Of a DNA stretch of 64,000 bases, positions 1-32,672 are shown in pieces. The translations under genes and the position numbers were made by a program. Where the stretch lies: assembly GCF_988243305.1 (NCBI RefSeq), contig NZ_OZ547136.1; one strand, 5' to 3'. The notes beneath the pieces were generated by a model. The model ran no database searches. It had not been told where the DNA came from and saw only the letters and a list, made by a program, of their open reading frames with translations. Numbering within the stretch: position 1 is the stretch's first letter; every line of letters begins with the position of its first letter.

Positions 1-150
1 GCATCACTGCTGCCGTGCGATAACGTCTTTGCCATCGAAAGCCGCTGGTATCGCGATAACCCTCTGGTGATCCGCGGACCAGGCGCAGGGCGCGATGTCA
101 CCGCCGGGGCGATTCAGTCGGATATCAACCGGCTGGCGCAGTTGTTGTAA
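1..150 (+). CDS. metL: Bifunctional aspartokinase II / homoserine dehydrogenase II, 3' end only (partial; start lies upstream of window)
   Basis: Frame 1 reads through to TAA at 148-150, giving a C-terminus ...RDNPLVIRGPGAGRDVTAGAIQSDINRLAQLL that I recognise as MetL; position immediately upstream of metF fits E. coli synteny. Confidence 0.8.
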   Translation, partial: ASLLPCDNVFAIESRWYRDNPLVIRGPGAGRDVTAGAIQSDINRLAQLL

Positions 151-1244
151 TCCTGAGCCAGAGAAAGCAGTATTTGCATAACGCGCCCTGCGGAAAGCGG
201 GGTGCTGTGAGTAAATACTGCTTGTTTATGTAGCCAGTCGATAAAATGTCTGCTGGTTGCTAAAGAGAGCATTTCAGCTTTGCTGATATTTCCGCCCGTT
301 AATGCACATACCATTTTACGATTTTTTCCCTGAACCCAGAGTTGCCACTGATTTTTCCACCAGCCGTGATAAGTTGTTCCCTGAAAACGCCAGGGCATAT
401 TATCGGTATCGTCAGCTATTTCCTCTTCAATAAACCAAATCTCACCTTGCTGTTGGCGAAACAGATCAGCCCATGCCGTAATAATGGCACCTCTTAAAAA
501 ACACTCGTGTGAAATTACATGTGTTTTTACTGTAGGGAAGAGAATATTCAGTACTCTGAAATGCCCGTGTGCAGTGATAACCGGACGCAGAATAACACCT
601 TTAGCATTGCGTTTGAGCGCTGCGCTGCCATACTGAATTTCATCAAACTGACTGCGGCGTAGAAATTGTGCTTCGCGCATATCAACGCGTTGTACAATAT
701 TACTCTCGTGTAACTCTGGTTCTGCATTCCCTCTGTATCGATAATGCAGACTTTCTCCAGCCTGATGCTGCGTGTAATTAGTAGAAAGATGAAGAATATT
801 ACCGCGAAGAGCATCAAAACTGATTAAAACATACAGTTTCTGCCCGCTGCTGACTCCCTGAAATGGCACGAGAAAAGCAACCGTTTCGATTATTTCAGGA
901 GGCGTTATTTCTTTCTGATATTGTTTGGGTGTCCATACTTTTTTGCAGTTACGGCATTGAATGCGTTGCGAACCCTGTGGATTGTGACCATAACAAATCG
1001 TATCTGTACCATAACATACCGGGCAAAAATGGCCTTTCTCTGTTGCAAAAGTAGATAAGTGAACTGACAACCAGTCACGAAATTGTTGCTCGTCAAACAA
1101 CGGCGGGTAACTGCCACATGCCCGACAGTGCAATGCCGGATAACCCAGTCGATAGTCTGGCCAGCTGTAATCTGTCGAAGTTGGCTGCCCTAAATTACGG
1201 CAACCAAACGACTTGCAGGCATTAATCGTAAACAGAGTCGACAT
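114..1244 (-). CDS. Hypothetical cysteine-rich protein with two predicted N-terminal zinc ribbons (Cx4C...CxxC and CxxC...CxxC), possibly transposase-derived; function unknown
   Basis: 376-aa ORF with ATG start (1242-1244) and a GGTGA Shine-Dalgarno-like motif 5-6 nt upstream. Cys pairs at residues 10/15, 40/43, 74/77 and 97/100; the segment CPVCYG...GSQRIQCRNCKKVW resembles IS1595/ISXO2-type transposase zinc ribbons. No other motif recognised in the C-terminal ~260 aa. Not part of the K-12 gene order as I recall it. Confidence 0.7.
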   Translation of the reverse strand: MSTLFTINACKSFGCRNLGQPTSTDYSWPDYRLGYPALHCRACGSYPPLFDEQQFRDWLSVHLSTFATEKGHFCPVCYGTDTICYGHNPQGSQRIQCRNCKKVWTPKQYQKEITPPEIIETVAFLVPFQGVSSGQKLYVLISFDALRGNILHLSTNYTQHQAGESLHYRYRGNAEPELHESNIVQRVDMREAQFLRRSQFDEIQYGSAALKRNAKGVILRPVITAHGHFRVLNILFPTVKTHVISHECFLRGAIITAWADLFRQQQGEIWFIEEEIADDTDNMPWRFQGTTYHGWWKNQWQLWVQGKNRKMVCALTGGNISKAEMLSLATSRHFIDWLHKQAVFTHSTPLSAGRVMQILLSLAQDYNNCASRLISD

Positions 1245-1301
1245 ATATCACCAACGATTTCACAAGGTCGTTGATTTTGTCCGGCAACGCTCCCTTGTGG
1301 A

Positions 1302-1317
1302 TGTGATTGCTCTCACA
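1302..1317. promoter_or_regulatory. Candidate CRP (cAMP receptor protein) binding site, perfect consensus palindrome TGTGA-N6-TCACA
   Basis: tgtgattgctctcaca read directly in the divergent intergenic region; centre ~67 bp upstream of the 1377 ATG. Confidence 0.45.
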
Positions 1318-1376
1318 TAAATAACTCTTTCAGAACGTAATGTAGCAATCCTTTATCTCACTGGAAGGGATTGTTT

Positions 1377-2930
1377 ATGAAAATTAAAATGCTTGCTGCG
1401 GGTATCGCATTAACACTGTCGTTTTGGGCTTGCGCCAAAGATGTCACCATCATTTATACCAACGACCTCCATGCACATGTAGAGCCTTATAAAGTGCCGT
1501 GGATTGCTGACGGTAAACGAGATATTGGCGGCTGGGCAAATATCACTACGCTTGTTAAACAAGAAAAAGCTAAAAACAAAGCGACCTGGTTTTTTGATGC
1601 GGGTGACTATTTTACCGGGCCGTATATCAGCAGCCTGACTAAAGGCAAGGCGATTATCGATATTATGAATACCATGCCGTTCGATGCGGTCACTATAGGT
1701 AATCATGAATTTGATCACGGCTGGGACAACACATTATTACAGTTGAGTCAGGCAAAATTCCCGATTGTGCAGGGCAATGTTTTTTATCAGAACAGCAGTA
1801 AATCATTCTGGGATAAGCCCTATACCATCATTGAAAAAGACGGCGTGAAAATTGGCGTGATTGGTTTGCACGGTGTATTTGCCTTTAATGATACGGTATC
1901 TGCGGCAACGCGAGTGGGTATTGAGGCGCGTGATGAAATTAAATGGCTACAACGTTATATCGATGAACTCAAAGGCAAGGTTGATTTGACCGTTGCGCTG
2001 ATTCACGAAGGTGTTCCGGCCCGCCAGTCCAGTATGGGGGGCACAGATGTGCGCCGCGCACTGGATAAAGATATTCAGACGGCAAGTCAGGTGAAAGGGC
2101 TGGATATTTTGATCACCGGGCATGCACATGTGGGTACGCCGGAACCGATTAAAGTCGGCAATACGCTCATCCTCTCCACTGACAGCGGCGGGATTGATGT
2201 GGGCAAACTGGTTCTCGACTACAAAGAGAAGCCGCATGATTTTACGGTGAAAAACTTCGAGCTTAAAACCATTTACGCCGACGAGTGGAAGCCCGATCCG
2301 CAAACGAAACAGGTGATCGACGGCTGGAATAAAAAGCTTGATGAAGTGGTGCAACAAACGGTCGCGAAATCGCCGGTTGAATTAAAACGTGCCTATGGTG
2401 AATCGGCTTCCCTCGGGAACCTGGCGGCGGACGCTTTACTGGTAGCGGCGGGTAAAAACACCCAATTGGCGTTAACCAACTCTGGCGGTATTCGCAATGA
2501 GATCCCCGCAGGGGCGATTACGATGGGCGGCGTCATCAGTACCTTCCCGTTCCCCAATGAACTGGTGACGATGGAGCTCACAGGTAAACAATTACGCAGT
2601 TTGATGGAACACGGCGCAAGTTTAAGTAATGGCGTTTTACAGGTATCGAAAGGCCTGGAAATGAAGTACGACAGCAGCAAACCGGTTGGTCAGCGGGTAA
2701 TCACACTGACTCTGAATGGCAAACCCATTGAAGATGCGACGATTTACCACATTGCTACTCAGAGTTTCCTTGCTGATGGTGGAGATGGTTTTACCGCCTT
2801 TACCGAAGGGAAAGCGCGTAACACAACGGGCGGTTATTACGTTTATCACGCCGTGGTTGATTACTTCAAAGCGGGCAATACCATTACGGATGAACAGATC
2901 AACGGTATGCGCGTGAAAGATATCAAGTAA
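1377..2930 (+). CDS. Secreted (periplasmic) bifunctional metallophosphoesterase / 5'-nucleotidase-family protein (UshA/CpdB-like)
   Basis: ORF track 1371..2930 begins at TTG; ATG at 1377 with GGAAGGGA 8 nt upstream is the more likely start (~517 aa). N-terminal signal peptide [20 protein letters not shown]. Calcineurin-like phosphoesterase motifs [23 protein letters not shown]; C-terminal region with GNLAADALL and NSGGIR typical of the 5'-nucleotidase C-terminal domain. Confidence 0.85.
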
Positions 2931-2986
2931 AAGTACGTATTGAGTTGATTCATCTGTTTGTTACCAGTTGATTTTGCAGATCCAGT

Positions 2987-3016
2987 ATTCGGCCTACGCG
3001 AGGGCGCAGGCCGAAT
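2987..3016. repeat. GC-rich stem-loop (9-bp stem attcggcct / aggccgaat, 12-nt loop); REP-like or terminator-like
   Basis: Inverted repeat read directly; no clear T-run on either side. Confidence 0.35.
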
Positions 3017-3238
3017 CAGATGCCTTAGCATCACCATCCGGTGGCAGGACGTTGTTTTTCGAATAAGCCCAGGTGTCGCTGTGTTGTCAGAATATCAGTC
3101 AAAACGTGCGAGGTGGATTGCGCTATAGAGAAATCTTTTATCGCCTCTAATTAAGATGAGTTTTTTTCAACTTCCCTGATTTTTCCTCACCATCATTGGT
3201 CATTTTTCGGTTGACGCCCCTCGGCTTTTCCTTCATCT

Positions 3239-3270
3239 TTACATCTGGACGTCTAAATGGATAGATGTTC
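3239..3270 (+). promoter_or_regulatory. MetJ operator (tandem 8-bp met boxes) upstream of metF
   Basis: ggacgtct aaatggat agatgttc matches AGACGTCT-type met boxes; position 40-70 bp upstream of the metF start. Confidence 0.6.
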
Positions 3271-3308
3271 ACAACACAACATATAACTACAAGCGATTGA
3301 TGAGGTAA

Positions 3309-4202
<894 letters not shown>

Positions 4203-4476: not shown

Positions 4477-6711
<2,235 letters not shown>

Positions 6712-6720
6712 TCTGACCTT

Positions 6721-6760
6721 CTTCAGCGGCTGCCTTTCAGGCAGTCGCTGAAGTTTCTTT
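6721..6760 (+). terminator. Rho-independent terminator downstream of katG
   Basis: Hairpin cttcagcggctgcc-tttc-aggcagtcgctgaag followed by tttcttt. Confidence 0.6.
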
Positions 6761-6804
6761 ACCGGCGTATAGTGTCCACAGGAAAACTACACACTGGATC
6801 TCTC

Positions 6805-7710
6805 ATGTCTGCCGCAGGAAAGAGCAACCCACTGGCAATCAGTGGCCTGGTTGTGCTCACACTTATCTGGAGTTATAGCTGGATTTTCATGAAGCAAGTC
6901 ACCAGCTACATCGGTGCCTTCGACTTTACCGCCTTACGCTGCATTTTTGGCGCTCTCGTTTTATTCATCGTCCTTTTATTACGTGGTCGCGGAATGCGCC
7001 CGACGCCATTTAAATACACCTTAGCCATTGCCCTGTTACAAACCTGCGGGATGGTTGGTCTGGCGCAGTGGGCGCTGGTCAGCGGCGGAGCGGGGAAGGT
7101 GGCGATCCTGAGCTATACCATGCCGTTCTGGGTGGTGATTTTCGCCGCGTTGTTTCTCGGTGAACGCCTGCGACGTGGGCAATATTTCGCGATACTGATT
7201 GCCGCTTTCGGCTTATTTTTGGTGTTGCAGCCGTGGCAACTCGATTTCTCTTCGATGAAAAGTGCCATGCTGGCAATCCTCTCCGGTGTTAGTTGGGGGG
7301 CGAGCGCGATTGTTGCTAAACGTCTGTATGCCCGTCATCCGCGCGTGGATTTATTGTCGTTAACATCCTGGCAGATGCTGTATGCGGCGCTGGTGATGAG
7401 TGTGGTCGCTTTACTGGTGCCGCAACGTGAAATTGACTGGCAGCCTACCGTGTTCTGGGCGCTGGCCTACAGTGCGATTCTGGCGACGGCGCTGGCGTGG
7501 AGCTTATGGTTGTTTGTATTGAAAAACTTGCCTGCCAGTATTGCCAGTTTAAGCACACTGGCCGTTCCCGTTTGCGGCGTACTCTTTTCCTGGTGGCTGC
7601 TCGGTGAGAATCCGGGGGCCGTTGAAGGTAGCGGTATTGTGCTGATTGTGCTGGCACTGGCGCTGGTGAGCCGTAAGAAAAAAGAAGCTGTCAGTGTAAA
7701 AAGCATCTGA
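6805..7710 (+). CDS. yijE: EamA/DMT-family inner membrane transporter
   Basis: ORF 6772..7710; ATG at 6805 gives ~301 aa; multiple hydrophobic helices; synteny. Confidence 0.85.
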
Positions 7711-7736
7711 ATTTTTTCTTCATGTGGGGCGATCGC

Positions 7737-8354
7737 TTATTTAACAAAATACCGATAGTGCCCCACCATCCGCCAGCTAAACAGCACGTCTTCTTCCTGC
7801 GCGCCTGCGCCAATGTTATGTATCACCAGCGGCGTACCGTCGCGGGCACAGCCATCTGACACCACCCCAATATGCGCCAGCCCGTTATCTAATCGCCAGG
7901 AGACAATATCGCCCGCTTGATAATCACCGGGGTTCTTGCTGGTGGGGCGTGTTTTATCATGGCGGCTAAACCAGGTTTCCAGATTAGGCACCCGACGGTG
8001 ATCGATGTTGCTGTCCGGGCGCTTTAACTGCCATTTTTGCGGGTACTCAGCAAAATTCTTCGCCATATCTTCGTGAACCAGTTTCTGCAAATCGACCTTC
8101 TGGCTGCGCAAGGCGCGGATCACCACATCGGAACATACGCCGCGTTCTTGCGGGACATCACCGCCAGGATAGGTAAGCTGCACATACGCCGGATCGTAAA
8201 ATAGCGTGCTGCCGATTTGCTGTCTGGCACCGTCTGCGATGGCAAGGTTGGTGTTGGCCTGGATTTGTACCACGGTTGGTGGAACGGCGGGAGATTTTAA
8301 GGAGTGGCTGGTAAATGCCGTTAGCAGGCTGACCAGCGCCAGTGAAGCTTTCAT
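7737..8354 (-). CDS. yijF: DUF1287-family periplasmic protein
   Basis: 205-aa ORF with N-terminal signal peptide MKASLALVSLLTAF; synteny. Confidence 0.85.
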   Translation of the reverse strand: MKASLALVSLLTAFTSHSLKSPAVPPTVVQIQANTNLAIADGARQQIGSTLFYDPAYVQLTYPGGDVPQERGVCSDVVIRALRSQKVDLQKLVHEDMAKNFAEYPQKWQLKRPDSNIDHRRVPNLETWFSRHDKTRPTSKNPGDYQAGDIVSWRLDNGLAHIGVVSDGCARDGTPLVIHNIGAGAQEEDVLFSWRMVGHYRYFVK

Positions 8355-8502
8355 CTGGTTCGTCCGTGAAAATAAGAGTCACAGATTCGACCTTCCGGGC
8401 TAACGATTGTTCTGTAGAGAAAATGTCCAGAAGCGGATAAAAAATTCCTGAACAACGTGTGAGTTTCAGACGGGTGATAACGTATAAAAAGTGCTCGAAC
8501 AG

Positions 8503-8606
8503 TCCCCTCTCCCCTTTGGGGAGAGGGTTAGGGTGAGGGGAACAGGCCAGCTCCGGGGCGAATATTTACCCTCACCCCGACCCTCTCCCTGAAAGGGCGA
8601 GGGGGA
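8503..8606. repeat. GC-rich palindromic intergenic repeat cluster (BIME/boxC-like), containing the unit GGGGAGAGGGTTAGGGTGAGGG and its inverted partner
   Basis: cccctctcccc/ggggagaggg hairpin and ccctcaccccgaccctctccctgaaagggcgaggggg read directly; the same 37-bp module recurs at 24114-24150. Confidence 0.6.
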
Positions 8607-8684
8607 AAAACATGCCCGCAGTGACGAGTGAGCCACTTTGCCTGCACTCTCAAACTCCCGGACAAGCCGGGAGTTTGGAGTAGG

Positions 8685-9788
8685 TTATTCCCACTCTTGC
8701 AGGAAACGCTGACCGTACTGGTCGGCTACCAGCAGAGCGGCGTAAACCTGATCTGGCGTCGCGCCGCCAGGCATGTTGTGGATGGTTTCACCTTCTGCAC
8801 ATGCCGCTTCTGCCACAATTCGCATTTTCGCCGGGACATCTTCTTTAATATCCAGTTGAGCGAGAGTTATTGGCAAACCTACCGCATGGCTAAGTGCAGC
8901 TACGGTTTCGATTTCCTCAACCGGCGCGTTTTCCAGTACCAGCTGCGTCAGCGTACCGAATGCCACTTTTTCACCGTGATAATAGTGATGCGCGTCCGGG
9001 ATAGCGGTCAGGCCGTTATGCACCGCATGAGCCGCCGCCAGTCCGCCGCTTTCAAAACCAACGCCGCTTAAATAGGTGTTCGCTTCAATCACGCGTTCCA
9101 GCGCAGGGGTTACTACATGCTGTTCGGCGGCAAGCATCGCTTTTTCGCCTTCTTCCAGCAGAGTGTTGTAGCACAGTTCTGCCAGTGCCAGCGCCGCCTG
9201 GGTGCACTTGCCGCCCGCCATAGTGGTAGCGCCGCTACGGGAACAGGCGCGTGCTTCAAACCAGGTTGCCAGCGCATCGCCGATACCCGCCGCTAACAGA
9301 CGTGCAGGAGCGCCAGCGACGATTTTGGTGTCGACAATGACCATATTCGGGTTATTTGGCAACAGTAGATAGCGGTCAAACTCACCCTCATCGGTGTAGA
9401 TAACAGACAATGCGCTGCACGGTGCATCGGTAGAGGCGATAGTCGGTGCGATCGCTACCGGAACACCCATGAAATGTGCCAGTGCTTTGGCAGTATCGAG
9501 GGTTTTTCCGCCACCGATACCGAGAATTGCGCCACACTGCGCAGTCTCCGCGATGCCACGCAGACGGTCGATCTCATTTTGCGAACATTCACCGCCAAAC
9601 GGCGCAATTTCTACTACCAGTCCAGCATCTTTAAAGCTTTTCTCGACAGTGGATTGAGCAAAACCTAAAACAAATTTGTCACCCACCACTAACCAGCGTT
9701 CTGCCAGCGGCTTCAGGTATTCGCCCAGACGATTAATCACATCAGCGCCCTGGATGTATTTACCCGGTGATTGAATAATGTGGTCCAT
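8685..9788 (-). CDS. gldA: Glycerol dehydrogenase
   Basis: ORF 8685..9827; ATG at 9786-9788 gives 367 aa ([17 protein letters not shown]...); iron-containing alcohol dehydrogenase family. Confidence 0.93.
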
Positions 9789-9798
9789 AATTGCTCCT

Positions 9799-10461
9799 TT
9801 AGAGATGAGTAGTGCCAAATGCGGCATTCCAGTCGTGTTCGAACTTCTCTATAGCTGACTCTACCGCAGGGGTGTTGAGCATTTGTTGCGCTACATCTAA
9901 GGGCAGGGTGATGGATTCACATCCTGCCAGTAAACAGTCCAGCGCCTGACGCGGCGTTTTAAAGCTGGCCGCCAGCACCATGCTTTCTGGTGCGTGCATT
10001 TCTAACAGCGCTTGCAGCTCCTGAACCGTACGAATGCCGTCCCCGCCCTGGGCATCTACGCGGTTAACATACGGAGCAACGTATTTTGCCCCTGCCAGCG
10101 CGGCCAGTAACCCTTGTGCAGCACTGTACACTGCGGTGCCAAGCGTAGTAATACCCTCTTTTTTCAGCATCTTAATGGCGGCCAGACCTTCGGAAGTCAC
10201 CGGGATTTTCACCACAATGCCCGGAATGGCGTCGCGCAGGCGCTTCGCTTCTTCCACCATACCCTGCGCGTCACGACTCATAGTCTGAGCAAACAGAATG
10301 CCCTCATCACCAATCGCTTTTTGCAGACGCGGCAGAACTTCCCATATGGACTCCTTGCTGGCAGCGATAATGCTCGGGTTAGTTGTCACCCCGGCAATGG
10401 GGAATATGCGTGCCAGACGTTCGACTTCTGCGACGTTAGCGGTGTCCAGATACAGTTCCAT
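9799..10461 (-). CDS. fsaB: Fructose-6-phosphate aldolase 2
   Basis: 220-aa [16 protein letters not shown]...; transaldolase-like fold; synteny. Confidence 0.92.
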
Positions 10462-10472
10462 GATGTTTCCTT

Positions 10473-12974
10473 TTACAGTTCCAGTTCATGTTGCAGCAGG
10501 CTGGCGATAGCGTCGGCAGAGGCGGCGTTAACCAGCGCGTTACGGAATTCTTCGTGCATGATGCGGCGAGCGAGGCGCGAGAAAATGCGCATGTGCTGAT
10601 CGCCCGCAGCGTGTTTGTTCAGGGTTAACATAATGATGAATTGCGCTTCATCATCGCCCCAGCGCACCGGCGCTTGCAGACGCGCCACGCTGATGGTGGA
10701 TTGCTCAATGTGTTCTGATTTGCTGTGTGGAATGGCAAAACTAAAGCCCAGACCGGTAGAGAAAACGGCCTCGCGCGCCCATAAGTCGGCTTCCAGTTTA
10801 CGCGGATAGCGGCAGCGGCCCGCCAGCAGCAGGTTATCGGTCATGCCTTTGAGCACTTCTTCTTTGCTGCGCCAGTCACTTTCCAGCGTGATGCACTCGG
10901 CGGTGACCAGCGGTGCGTCCTGTTGGGTCATGCGGAATTGCGCCAGCAGGTGTTCCACTTCCAGCGAAGTACGGCAGGCCATTGCCTGGTTGAGCAACTT
11001 GCGGCACTCACGGCTATCAAGTTGCGCCATCCGAGCTTTCGCCGCCGGAATTGATGGTGCGCTCATGCTGAGTTCATCCAGCCCTAAGCCGACCAGCAAC
11101 GGCAGCACGGAACCTTTCGCTCCCAGCTCACCGCACAGACCAATCCATTTGCCCTGGCGATGCACCGCTTGCACGGCGTAATCGAGCGCCCGCAAGAATG
11201 CCGGATTCAGGCTGTTGTAGTGACGAGTAACCTTAGCGTTATCGCGATCCACTGCCAGCAGATATTGCGTCAGGTCATTACTACCAATACTAAAGAAATC
11301 AATCTCTTCACAGCATTGATCGATGATGAACATCACCGACGGCACTTCCAGCATGATGCCGAGCTGGATCTTCTCATCAAACGGAATGTGTTCGTTACGC
11401 AGTTGCTGTTTGGCTTCCGCCAGTTTTTCTTTCACCCATAAGATCTCTTCCATTGAAGAGATCATCGGGATCATGATTTTCAGGCTGCCGTGAGCGGAGG
11501 CACGGAGAATCGACCGTAGTTGTGTGGTAAATAACGACGCGTACTCTTCATAAATACGCACGGCGCGATAACCGAGGAACGGGTTTGCCTCTGCGGGAAT
11601 GTTCAGATAATCAACGGGTTTGTCACCGCCAATATCCATAGTGCGCACAATAATGCTGCGTCCGTTGGCGGACTCCAGCGCCTGACAAAAAATGTTGTAC
11701 AGCTCGCTTTCGCCCGGTGCACTGGTGCGATCCATATAGAGCATTTCAGTGCGGAATAAACCAACGCCTTCCGCACCATTGCCGAATGCGGCCTGCGCTT
11801 CCACGGAGTGAGCGATGTTAGCGGCAATTTCAATGCGGATACCGTCAGCGGTACGGGCTTGTTGGGTCAGCCAGACACGCTGTTGCTCACGCAGGGCGTC
11901 CTGTACGCGGGCTTCCTGCTGATAATAACGAGCTACGGCTTCCCCTGGCTCAACCACAATCGCCCCAGCGTTTCCGTCGATATAAATCGTTTGATGCTGC
12001 CACGGAGTGAGGGCATCAATATCCACACCAACCAGCGTCGGAATGTTGAACGAACGGGCAAGGATCACCGTATGTGAGGTGGTGCCGCCGCTTTTGAGCA
12101 ACAATCCTTTGAGGTGATTTTTATCCAGTTCGAGGAACTGGCTGGGGGTCAGTTCATCAGCCATACAAATGGCGGGCTGCGTCAGTTTGCCCGGTGCCGG
12201 GAAGCGTTGCTCACCGTAGATTTGCTGGAGTAACTGGAAGCAGACGTCGCGTACGTCCAGGGCGCGTTCTTGCAGGTAGCTGCTGCTGGAACGGGCGAAC
12301 TCTTCGCAGAAGTGGTGTGCACTGGCGACAATCGCTTCGGCACAGCTTAATCCCTCGCTGACGCCTGCCAGTAAGTGCTGACGTAAAGAAGTATCGCCAG
12401 CCAGGGATCGGTGAGCTTCCAGAATCGCGCTGGTGGCACCGTCGCTATCCAGCAGACGAAATTCAATGTTTTTCATCACCAGCGTCAGACCGTTTTCCAG
12501 TGCGGATTGTTCGGCGTCAACGCTTTTGGCAGCAGGAAGATTACCCAGCGCATTGAGATCTAAAGAAGAGATCGGCGTCAGAATGCCGCCTGCGCTACCG
12601 CTGCACACGGTGCGGGCGCGGATAATTTGCGGATTCAGATTGGTCAGTGAAACCGGCAGTGGTTCCAGTTCGTCAGATTTTACTTCCGCCAGCGGTGCGT
12701 CGCAGTGGGGGAATTCATCGCGCAGCCATTGGCTTAAACGCTGGTACGCTTCCTGTTCGTCTGCCCCGGAAATCAGTAACTGGCAGTTATCGCCCACCAG
12801 CGTATCGGTGCCAATCAGCGCAAGGGCGCTTTTGGCGTTGCCCTTGCGGTCAGTGCGCAGGTTATGCCACTCAATTTGTGATGAAAAAGTATTACACAGC
12901 GTTTCAACGTGGCTTGCCGGACGCGCATGTACGCCGTTAGGTAGCTCACAAATAAATTCCACAATCAGGGCCAT
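10473..12974 (-). CDS. ptsA: Multiphosphoryl transfer protein (PTS enzyme I-like with HPr and EIIA domains)
   Basis: 833-aa ORF; PEP-utilising enzyme motifs; synteny. Confidence 0.92.
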
Positions 12975-32633: not shown

Positions 32634-32672
32634 TCGGAATCATGCCGGATGCTGATGCATCCGGCATGGGTT

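What the first reader, a model, noticed from the sequence alone, without database searches (positions are those of the whole stretch)
2987..3016. GC-rich hairpin between the nucleotidase gene and the metF promoter, a possible junction marker
attcggcct-acgcgagggcgc-aggccgaat forms a 9-bp stem with a 12-nt loop, 57 bp after the 2930 stop and with no adjoining T tract on either strand. It contains a GGCCTAC-like motif reminiscent of REP elements. It could be the right-hand junction of the insertion, a REP remnant, or a Rho-dependent pause element.
Basis: seen in the sequence. Interest (0 to 1): 0.25.

Follow-up and report, generated by a model that had tools for sequence, protein, structure and literature searches.

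The report
Decayed REP/BIME repeat, not a junction
The hairpin is real, but it is a worn copy of the common E. coli REP/BIME intergenic repeat lying just after a 5'-nucleotidase gene, about 145 bp inside the variable DNA rather than at its edge, so it is an ordinary feature.

Summary
ATTCGGCCT (2987-2995) pairs with AGGCCGAAT (3008-3016). The stem extends by 3 more bp after one A/C mismatch, giving 13-nt arms around a GAGG loop. It folds far better than shuffled sequence and has no adjoining T tract.

It is the head-to-head junction of a partial BIME. The parts are a truncated inverted-REP tail (TATTCGGCCTAC, 2986-2997), an 8-nt linker, and a 37-nt REP (3006-3042) whose GTAG has decayed to GCAG. 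A covariance model built only from non-orthologous copies (the E. coli speB-loiP BIMEs, Citrobacter, Superficieibacter) scores window 2984-3044 at 36.3 bits (E about 2e-8). That is the only significant hit in the 64 kb.

The hairpin is not the junction. Homology with K-12 stops at 151 and resumes at 3162, so the hairpin lies 145 bp inside the variable segment. It occurs once per genome in 1832 of 5426 complete E. coli genomes, essentially the same set that carries the nucleotidase gene.

The "island" is not an insertion. The order metL, hypothetical gene, nucleotidase gene is conserved across at least eight enterobacterial genera, so K-12 has lost it.

The likely role, if any, is the usual REP role in a 3' UTR: a barrier to exonucleases or a transcription attenuator. 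This is inferred, not shown. Interest is low.

The parts
2986..2997 (+). Truncated inverted-REP (iREP) tail TATTCGGCCTAC, ending in CTAC (2994-2997). It contains the left arm of the reported hairpin.
   Evidence: It matches the canonical iREP tail CTTATCC(G/A)(G/A)CCTAC seen in C600 speB-loiP, Citrobacter L024 and Superficieibacter L034. It aligns to positions 1-14 of model R2. No full iREP is recognisable upstream: model R1 gives only 9.2 bits, E = 3.5 on the - strand at 2974-2997.
2998..3005 (+). 8-nt head-to-head linker GCGAGGGC. It forms the inner 3 bp and the GAGG loop of the hairpin.
   Evidence: Linkers at the same position are 7 nt in L024, 11 nt in C600/AVS0754 and 14 nt in L022/L032/L034. 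The linker varies among E. coli alleles (G2998A in N96; G3003A in PSJ-42 and N96).
3006..3042 (+). Degenerate REP, 37 nt. GCAG (in place of GTAG) at 3006-3009; 5' foot GCCGAAT at 3010-3016; inner stem GATGC (3019-3023) and GCATC (3028-3032) around loop CTTA; 3' foot ATCCGGT at 3036-3042. Its first 11 nt supply the right arm of the reported hairpin.
   Evidence: Model R2, built from six non-orthologous copies, scores 2984-3044 at 36.3 bits, E = 1.8e-8; the next hit in the 64 kb is 12.5 bits. Alignment to L024: 80% identity, score 50 against shuffles of 13.7 +/- 2.3, 0 of 2000 as high. The orthologous copies in L011 and L013 carry GTAG.
2987..3016 (.). The reported hairpin (hairpin A): the iREP tail paired with the GTAG-proximal end of the REP.
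   Evidence: It is the predicted minimum-energy structure in the E. coli alleles examined (in NU14 only its inner part, because of the C.A mismatch), in orthologs L011-L013 and in paralog L024. Three pairs show changes on both sides; 6 of 500 shuffles reach this.
1377..2930 (+). Bifunctional metallophosphatase/5'-nucleotidase gene. The element lies in its 3' flank.
   Evidence: Pfam Metallophos and 5_nucleotid_C. RefSeq annotation in L002-L007.
114..1244 (-). Conserved hypothetical 376-aa gene, divergent from the nucleotidase gene. Its 3' end overlaps the end of metL.
152..3161 (.). Segment with no counterpart in K-12, where 197 bp containing a different REP and a terminator-like hairpin stand instead.
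3162..3311 (+). Native metF upstream region, shared with K-12 and conserved across enterobacterial genera.

Best explanation
The hairpin is the head-to-head junction of a partial BIME, a member of the REP (repetitive extragenic palindrome) family.

Shown: a roughly 12-nt remnant of an inverted REP (TATTCGGCCTAC) is followed, after an 8-nt linker, by a 37-nt REP of the subtype with a GATGC...GCATC inner stem. That REP's conserved GTAG has mutated to GCAG.

Shown: the element lies in the 3' flank of the 5'-nucleotidase gene, on the variable side of the metL-metF polymorphism, about 145 bp from the boundary with the conserved metF upstream region. It has been inherited at this position within Escherichia and Pseudocitrobacter.

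Inferred: when transcribed as the nucleotidase 3' UTR, it acts as REPs in that position usually do. It would be a stem-loop barrier to 3'->5' exonucleases and perhaps a partial, Rho-assisted transcription attenuator that limits read-through into the MetJ-controlled metF promoter. With GCAG in place of GTAG it is probably no longer a substrate for the REP-associated transposase.
For: Family membership:
- Model R2, built from six non-orthologous copies, gives 36.3 bits and E = 1.8e-8 for window 2984-3044. It is the only significant hit in the 64 kb.
- The element is 80% identical to the Citrobacter FP75 element, with the same truncation point; 0 of 2000 shuffles score as high.
- That Citrobacter element matches a median of 15 intergenic places per E. 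coli genome, 88,145 places in all.
- A textbook BIME with the same REP subtype and head-to-head layout lies downstream of speB in C600, and as a tandem array in AVS0754.

Orthologous copies are closer to the consensus. L011 has ATTTGGCCTACG...CGTAGGCCAAAT, L013 has CTTATCCGGCCTAT...GTAGGCCGAATAAG...CATCGCCATCCGGC, and L012 has CTTATCCGACCCAT...GTGGGCCGGATAAG.

Position relative to the junction.

Linkage to the nucleotidase gene: the hairpin occurs once per genome in 1832 genomes, and the gene plus spacer occurs in 1840.

Positional analogues: unrelated GC-rich hairpins, some with T runs, follow the orthologous stop codon in Citrobacter, Klebsiella, Salmonella arizonae, Kluyvera and Kosakonia. 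This suggests a 3'-end hairpin is generally kept at this position.

Published REP roles as attenuator and exonuclease barrier: PMC12306157, introduction. REP/BIME definitions, partial BIMEs and the GTAG requirement: PMC3333891.
Against: - A generic short-type REP model gives only 9.5 bits, E = 3. Recognition therefore depends on the subtype model.
- GTAG, the most conserved REP feature, is GCAG in this window.
- Only 12-14 nt of the inverted partner are recognisable, so this is not a complete BIME.
- No transcript data were available, so the RNA-level role is entirely inferred.
- The T5 run 38 nt downstream is not conserved in L011, and no terminator was detected.
- The two stem substitutions seen in E. 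coli (G3013A in NU14, G2998A in N96) are C.A mismatches in the + strand (mRNA sense) but G.U pairs on the - strand. This fits poorly with strong selection on the mRNA hairpin.
- The covariation in hairpin A could come from both arms tracking the REP family consensus, without any selection on this particular hairpin.
Confidence: 0.85

Rival explanations
1. It is the same REP/BIME relic but has no function: a decaying selfish repeat kept only by descent.
For: GTAG has decayed to GCAG, and the REP foot has mismatches (5 of 7 Watson-Crick pairs plus one G.U). The inverted partner is truncated. Stem substitutions segregate in E. coli. Orthologous modules in Citrobacter, Klebsiella and Salmonella arizonae do without it.
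Against: Hairpin A keeps its pairing through double changes at three pairs across Escherichia and Pseudocitrobacter. Every lineage keeps some GC-rich hairpin right after this stop codon.
Confidence: 0.35
2. It is a structure selected in its own right: an insulator between the nucleotidase gene and the MetJ-regulated metF promoter, built from REP material but now maintained as hairpin A and not as a REP.
For: Covariation supports hairpin A and not the REP's own stem. Hairpin A is the predicted minimum-energy structure in nearly all copies examined. metF lies downstream in the same orientation with no canonical terminator in between.
Against: The sample is small (9 sequences, one of them a paralog). 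Both arms belong to a repeat family that evolves in concert. There is no Rfam match and no transcript evidence.
Confidence: 0.12
3. It is a Rho-independent terminator of the nucleotidase gene.
For: It is a strong GC-rich stem-loop 57 nt after the stop codon. Citrobacter orthologs have a true terminator-like hairpin with a T run at this position.
Against: There is no U tract adjoining the stem on either strand, and the scan found no terminator-like sites in 2700-3400. The nearest T5 is 38 nt away and is not conserved in L011.
Confidence: 0.03
4. It marks the right-hand junction, or is a recombination site or terminal repeat, of an inserted genomic island.
For: It lies on the segment absent from K-12. 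REPs often sit at the borders of variable regions. In Escherichia and Pseudocitrobacter the gene content immediately to its right differs between species.
Against: The boundary with K-12 is at 3161/3162, 145 bp away. The long island has no partner copy at its left end. No integrase or transposase domain was found. The module is ancestral at this site in many genera.
Confidence: 0.03
5. It is a palindromic operator (ATTCGGCCT-N12-AGGCCGAAT) for a DNA-binding protein, for example the Cys-rich hypothetical protein encoded next to it.
For: It is a perfect 9-bp inverted repeat. The neighbouring conserved protein of unknown function has zinc-ribbon-like motifs.
Against: The sequence is explained as a member of the REP family. 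It lies downstream, not upstream, of the divergent gene pair. The same gene pair in other genera lacks it.
Confidence: 0.02

Closest known systems
E. coli REP / BIME elements (y, z1, z2 REPs; BIME-1, BIME-2 and atypical BIMEs; Ton-Hoang et al. 2012, PMC3333891)
   Same: Extragenic location. An imperfect palindrome of about 37 nt with a GCCGGAT/ATCCGGC-type foot and an inner stem. The same subtype as the REP downstream of speB in K-12 derivatives (GTAGGCCGGATAAGATGCGCCAGCATCGCATCCGGCA). A head-to-head arrangement with an inverted partner across a short linker.
   Different: GTAG is GCAG. The foot carries an A.C mismatch and a G.U pair. The inverted partner is reduced to its last 12-14 nt, making this a 'partial BIME'. 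This exact sequence is single-copy.
Partial BIMEs such as B315 at araD-araA (PMC3333891)
   Same: A full REP plus an incomplete inverted partner that retains the CTAC-containing tail, which is where TnpA_REP cleaves.
   Different: No biochemical data exist for this copy. Loss of GTAG predicts that TnpA_REP would neither bind nor cleave it.
REP stem-loops in 3' UTRs acting as exonuclease barriers or transcription attenuators (summarised in PMC12306157)
   Same: It lies downstream of a stop codon in a co-oriented gene pair, forms a stable stem-loop and has no U tract.
   Different: It is 57 nt from the stop, outside the <=15-nt range linked to translational down-regulation. No stability or termination data exist for it.
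Rho-independent terminators
   Same: A GC-rich hairpin shortly after a stop codon.
   Different: It lacks the U tract that defines them.

Membership tests
REP (repetitive extragenic palindrome), E. coli type | Extragenic location | tested here: met
   It lies in the 381-bp spacer between the nucleotidase stop (2930) and the metF start (3312). No feature is annotated under it in the RefSeq genomes.
REP (repetitive extragenic palindrome), E. coli type | Short (about 14-40 nt) imperfect palindrome able to form a stem-loop | tested here: met
   3006-3042 is 37 nt. The foot is GCCGAAT/ATCCGGT and the inner stem is GATGC/GCATC. Across 9 copies, 85.6% of cells pair.
REP (repetitive extragenic palindrome), E. 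coli type | Conserved GTAG tetranucleotide 5' to the foot of the palindrome | tested here: not met
   The window has GCAG at 3006-3009. GTAG is present at the orthologous position in L011 and L013 and in paralog L024; L034 also has GCAG. This is why the copy is filed as degenerate.
REP (repetitive extragenic palindrome), E. coli type | Shares a consensus motif with other copies | tested here: met
   Subtype model R2 from six non-orthologous copies: 36.3 bits, E = 1.8e-8. Pairwise alignment to L024: 80% identity, 0 of 2000 shuffles as high. Caveat: the generic short-REP model R1 gives only 9.5 bits, E = 3.
REP (repetitive extragenic palindrome), E. coli type | Multiple dispersed copies per genome | tested here: met
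   At family level, the L024 element matches a median of 15 places per genome, up to 30, in 5425 genomes. This particular diverged sequence occurs once per genome.
REP (repetitive extragenic palindrome), E. coli type | Bound and cleaved by TnpA_REP (needs GTAG and the stem mismatch) | not testable with these tools
   From PMC3333891, mutating GTAG abolishes binding and cleavage. By inference, this GCAG copy would be inactive.
BIME (bacterial interspersed mosaic element) | [quoted passage not shown] | tested here: not met
   Only the last 12-14 nt of the inverted partner are recognisable (model R1 on the - strand at 2974-2997: 9.2 bits, E = 3.5; the model R2 alignment starts at 2984). It is therefore a partial BIME.
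Rho-independent terminator | GC-rich stem-loop immediately followed by a U tract | tested here: not met
   The stem is present. There is no T tract within 2 nt on either strand, and no terminator-like sites were found in 2700-3400.
Genomic-island boundary element (att site or terminal inverted repeat) | Coincides with the junction between conserved and variable DNA, with a partner at the other end | tested here: not met
   The junctions are at 151/152 and 3161/3162. There is no partner copy in the short form or the long form.
Any curated Rfam RNA family | Match to a covariance model | tested here: not met
   The only hit was a snoRNA model at 15 bits, E = 7.9, which is noise.

The most novel reading that the evidence does not exclude
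A REP fragment has been co-opted. Here the pairing between a truncated inverted-REP tail and the head of the adjacent REP (hairpin A), and not the REP's own stem, is the structure under selection. It would serve as a U-tract-less 3'-end or insulator element that keeps nucleotidase transcription out of the MetJ-regulated metF promoter.
Probability: 0.1. Interest if true: 0.3.

Novelty: new member of a known kind. Interest (0 to 1): 0.1.

Why it matters
It matters little in itself: this is one more diverged REP/BIME copy in a locus that K-12 lacks.

Two corrections are useful to anyone annotating this region.
- The two "island" genes between metL and metF are ancestral to Enterobacteriaceae and were lost in K-12-like E. 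coli. They were not inserted.
- The variable/conserved boundary is a fixed point about 150 bp upstream of metF, shared across genera. It is not at the hairpin.

The case also shows that a degenerate REP can be missed by a generic model (E = 3) and yet recognised clearly by a subtype model (E = 2e-8).

Tried and rejected
- Rfam scan of 2700-3400 at a permissive threshold found nothing.
- Promoter and terminator scan found nothing.
- BLAST of the 56-bp hairpin segment against 5426 E. coli genomes found one copy per genome, so BLAST alone suggested it was not a repeat. This was misleading, because the copy is too diverged for 11-nt words.
- Regex search for canonical REP motifs in the 64-kb window found none apart from the finding.
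- The generic REP covariance model R1 was inconclusive: 9.5 bits, E = 3.
- HS-02 looked like a genome with the hairpin but no island genes. Its "spacer" is A/G-only homopolymer noise with fragments of the nucleotidase gene, so it is an assembly artefact.
- No terminal copy of the hairpin exists at the left end of the long-form island in NU14.
- No relics of the extra genes seen in other species (a LysR-type regulator and others) were found in window 3045-3161.
- I could not list the 8 genomes that carry the nucleotidase gene plus spacer but not the 56-bp hairpin piece (1840 against 1832).

Full report
**Observation.** The sequence at 2987-3016 is exactly as described. ATTCGGCCT (2987-2995) is separated from AGGCCGAAT (3008-3016) by 12 nt, and the hairpin starts 57 bases after the TAA stop of the nucleotidase gene at 2928-2930. 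The stem is longer than reported. After one A2996/C3007 mismatch there are 3 more pairs around a GAGG loop, giving 13-nt arms that are 92% complementary. As RNA the + strand folds at -20.4 kcal/mol (z = -4.2) and the - strand at -25.4 kcal/mol (z = -4.95). None of 200 dinucleotide shuffles folds as well in either case. No T tract adjoins the stem on either strand, and no terminator-like or promoter-like site was found in 2700-3400. The window holds 18 perfect hairpins with stems of at least 9 bp, against 3.45 +/- 1.8 expected. The feature is therefore non-random but belongs to a common class.

**Where it sits relative to the polymorphism.** Alignment with a K-12-type genome (L001) shows shared sequence up to window 151 (the metL stop plus one base) and again from 3162. 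Between these points K-12 has 197 bp, including a different REP and a terminator-like hairpin. The window has 3010 bp carrying a 376-aa hypothetical gene (114-1244, - strand) and a metallophosphatase/5'-nucleotidase gene (1377-2930, + strand). The hairpin therefore lies on the variable side, 145 bp from the boundary, and does not mark it.

Among 5426 complete E. coli genomes, 1832 carry the full 381-bp spacer. The same number carry the 56-bp hairpin segment, always once per genome. The nucleotidase gene plus spacer is present at 80% coverage or more in 1840. One apparent exception, strain HS-02, seemed to have the spacer without the gene. It is an assembly artefact in which the gene has been degraded to A/G homopolymer noise.

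**Polarity of the "island".** A scan of one genome per species found close orthologs of the nucleotidase (87-98% amino-acid identity) across Enterobacteriaceae. The divergent pair hyp(-)/nuc(+) is conserved as a module. It lies directly after metL in Escherichia (including E. whittamii and Escherichia sp. MOD1-EC7003), Pseudocitrobacter, Klebsiella, Citrobacter, Kosakonia, Phytobacter, Superficieibacter and Salmonella enterica subsp. arizonae. In these genera the hyp 3' end overlaps the end of metL just as in the window. In many of them metF follows, either directly or after one or two extra genes.

The two-gene form in the window is therefore the ancestral arrangement. K-12-type genomes have lost it. 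B2 strains such as NU14 have gained a Tsx-like porin gene and two further nucleotidase paralogs between metL and hyp. The conserved metF upstream region begins at about 3152-3166 in all genera.

**What the hairpin is.** Downstream of the orthologous stop codon, the nearest relatives carry sequences much closer to the canonical E. coli REP:
- L011: TATTTGGCCTACG-CGAGAA-CGTAGGCCAAATAAGATGCTGTAGCATCGCCATCCAGTGGC
- L013: CTTATCCGGCCTATG-CACAAA-CGTAGGCCGAATAAGATATGTGTGCATCGCCATCCGGCG
- L012: CTTATCCGACCCATG-GAAGAA-CGTGGGCCGGATAAGAGGCATCCGGCG

At a non-orthologous position in Citrobacter sp. FP75, immediately after the metL stop, lies TTATCCGGCCTAC-ACGATCC-GTAGGCCGGATAAGATGCGTAAGCATCACCGCCCGGCA. It aligns to window 2985-3041 at 80% identity, starting at the same truncation point. 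The score is 50, against 13.7 +/- 2.3 for 2000 shuffles (maximum 29). Used as a query, that Citrobacter element matches a median of 15 unannotated intergenic places per E. coli genome, 88,145 places in 5425 genomes.

One of those places, downstream of speB in the K-12 derivative C600, is a textbook BIME...GCGTGAACGCCTTATCCGACCTAC-GTTCGGCACCC-GTAGGCCGGATAAGATGCGCCAGCATCGCATCCGGCA. In strain AVS0754 it is repeated in tandem.

I built a covariance model from six such non-orthologous copies (alignment A4, model R2). It scores window 2984-3044 on the + strand at 36.3 bits, E = 1.8e-8. The next hit in the 64 kb is 12.5 bits and is the same locus read on the other strand. A generic model of short REPs gave only 9.5 bits (E = 3) for 3006-3044, and 9.2 bits (E = 3.5) for the left fragment on the - strand. 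This copy is therefore diverged and is recognised only through its subtype.

**Anatomy.**
- 2986-2997: TATTCGGCCTAC, the tail of an inverted REP ending in CTAC.
- 2998-3005: GCGAGGGC, the linker.
- 3006-3042: the REP. It comprises GCAG in place of GTAG, the foot GCCGAAT, the inner stem GATGC-CTTA-GCATC, and the 3' foot ATCCGGT.

The reported hairpin is the pairing of the two REP heads across the linker. C3007, which makes the A/C mismatch in the hairpin, is the same base that spoils GTAG.

Following Ton-Hoang et al. (PMC3333891), E. coli REPs are 30-40 nt imperfect palindromes with a conserved GTAG 5' to the foot. They usually occur paired with an inverted iREP across a linker. Partial BIMEs exist, and TnpA_REP needs GTAG in order to bind and cleave. 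This copy meets the criteria of location, palindrome, consensus and family copy number. It fails GTAG and lacks a complete partner. I therefore file it as a degenerate partial BIME.

**Structure conservation.** I tested an alignment of nine copies: five E. coli alleles, L011, L012, L013 and the L024 paralog (alignment A3). The reported hairpin pairs in 82% of cells and has three pairs with changes on both sides (U-A to C-G at two pairs and C-G to U-A at one). Only 6 of 500 shuffles reach this count, and 1 of 500 reaches the covariation score. The REP's own stem pairs in 86% of cells but shows no double changes.

Within E. coli the two stem substitutions (G3013A in NU14, G2998A in N96) would be C.A mismatches in the mRNA-sense strand and G.U pairs in the opposite strand. 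Three observations, counting the A2996/C3007 mismatch, are too few to decide which strand folds. Because both arms belong to a repeat family, the covariation may reflect concerted evolution toward REP variants and not selection on this particular hairpin.

**Mechanism (inferred).** The element is on the sense strand of the nucleotidase transcript, 57 nt beyond the stop. That is too far for the ribosome-stalling effect, which is limited to REPs within 15 nt of a stop (PMC12306157). REP stem-loops in 3' UTRs are reported to attenuate transcription and to block ribonucleolytic decay (PMC12306157). Every lineage examined keeps some GC-rich hairpin right after this stop codon. In Citrobacter it is a true terminator-like hairpin with a T run, and other genera have unrelated stems. 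metF follows in the same orientation with no canonical terminator in between. The most likely role is therefore a 3'-end barrier or attenuator. A functionless relic is nearly as likely. No transcript data were available to decide between them.

**Verdict.** This is an ordinary, diverged member of a well-known repeat family and is of low interest.

Noticed in passing
window 3156-3179; also L042, L023, L044, L027 and L028 downstream of the nucleotidase stop: At the left edge of the conserved metF upstream region, ATGAGTTTTTTTCAACTTCCCTGA reads as a 7-codon mini-ORF, MSFFQLP*. It echoes the MetF N-terminus MSFFHAS (window 3312 onward). Comparable 7-codon ORFs sit at the same place in Salmonella arizonae (MKKIHLC*), Citrobacter youngae (MKKIHLH*), Kluyvera (MNIFHIR*) and Kosakonia/Phytobacter (MNFFHLR*). 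K-12 and L029 lack the ATG. The site also contains a TGAA-N5/6-TTCA palindrome. It could be a leader peptide or an operator.
   Followed up: no
window 114-1244 (- strand): The 376-aa hypothetical protein has a Cys-rich N-terminus (several CxxC motifs) and only a weak, sub-threshold Pfam hit (Dof zinc ribbon, E = 0.0056). It is always divergent from the nucleotidase gene and is conserved across many Enterobacteriaceae. Its last 37 nt overlap the 3' end of metL convergently. Its function is unknown.
   Followed up: partly
L008 (NU14) 5848-11700; also L002, L005-L007: B2 and some other E. coli carry a longer form of the locus, with a Tsx-like nucleoside porin gene and two more 5'-nucleotidase paralogs between metL and the hypothetical gene. 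This looks like a nucleoside-scavenging cluster. In ECCNB12-2 one paralog is frameshifted.
   Followed up: partly
L034 (Superficieibacter electus) about 5585-5650: A roughly 60-nt duplicate of the metL 3' end (GCGATGTCACCGCCGGGGCGATTCAGTCAGATATTAACCGGCTGGCACAACTGTTGCAG) lies directly after the nucleotidase terminator hairpin and is followed by a REP. This suggests a past rearrangement involving the end of metL.
   Followed up: no
L009 (E. coli HS-02, NZ_CP172818.1) 3250-4000: About 750 bp of A/G-only, homopolymer-rich sequence replaces the hypothetical and nucleotidase genes in a RefSeq 'complete' genome. Fragments still align to window 1917-2041. It is an assembly or consensus artefact.
   Followed up: yes
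E. coli genome collection: 1840 genomes hold at least 80% of the nucleotidase gene plus spacer, but only 1832 hold the 56-bp hairpin segment. The 8 discordant genomes could not be listed with the tools available.
   Followed up: no
window 32641-32668: The perfect palindrome CATGCCGGATGCTGATGCATCCGGCATG has a REP-like foot (GCCGGAT/ATCCGGC) but no GTAG. Both REP models give it borderline scores (11-12 bits).
   Followed up: no
L010 (MAG labelled Citrobacter sp. HRGM_Genome_0066): This 4.5-kb contig is 98-100% identical to E. coli at metL, the nucleotidase gene and metF, and it carries the identical hairpin. It is probably an E. coli contig mis-binned into a Citrobacter MAG.
   Followed up: no
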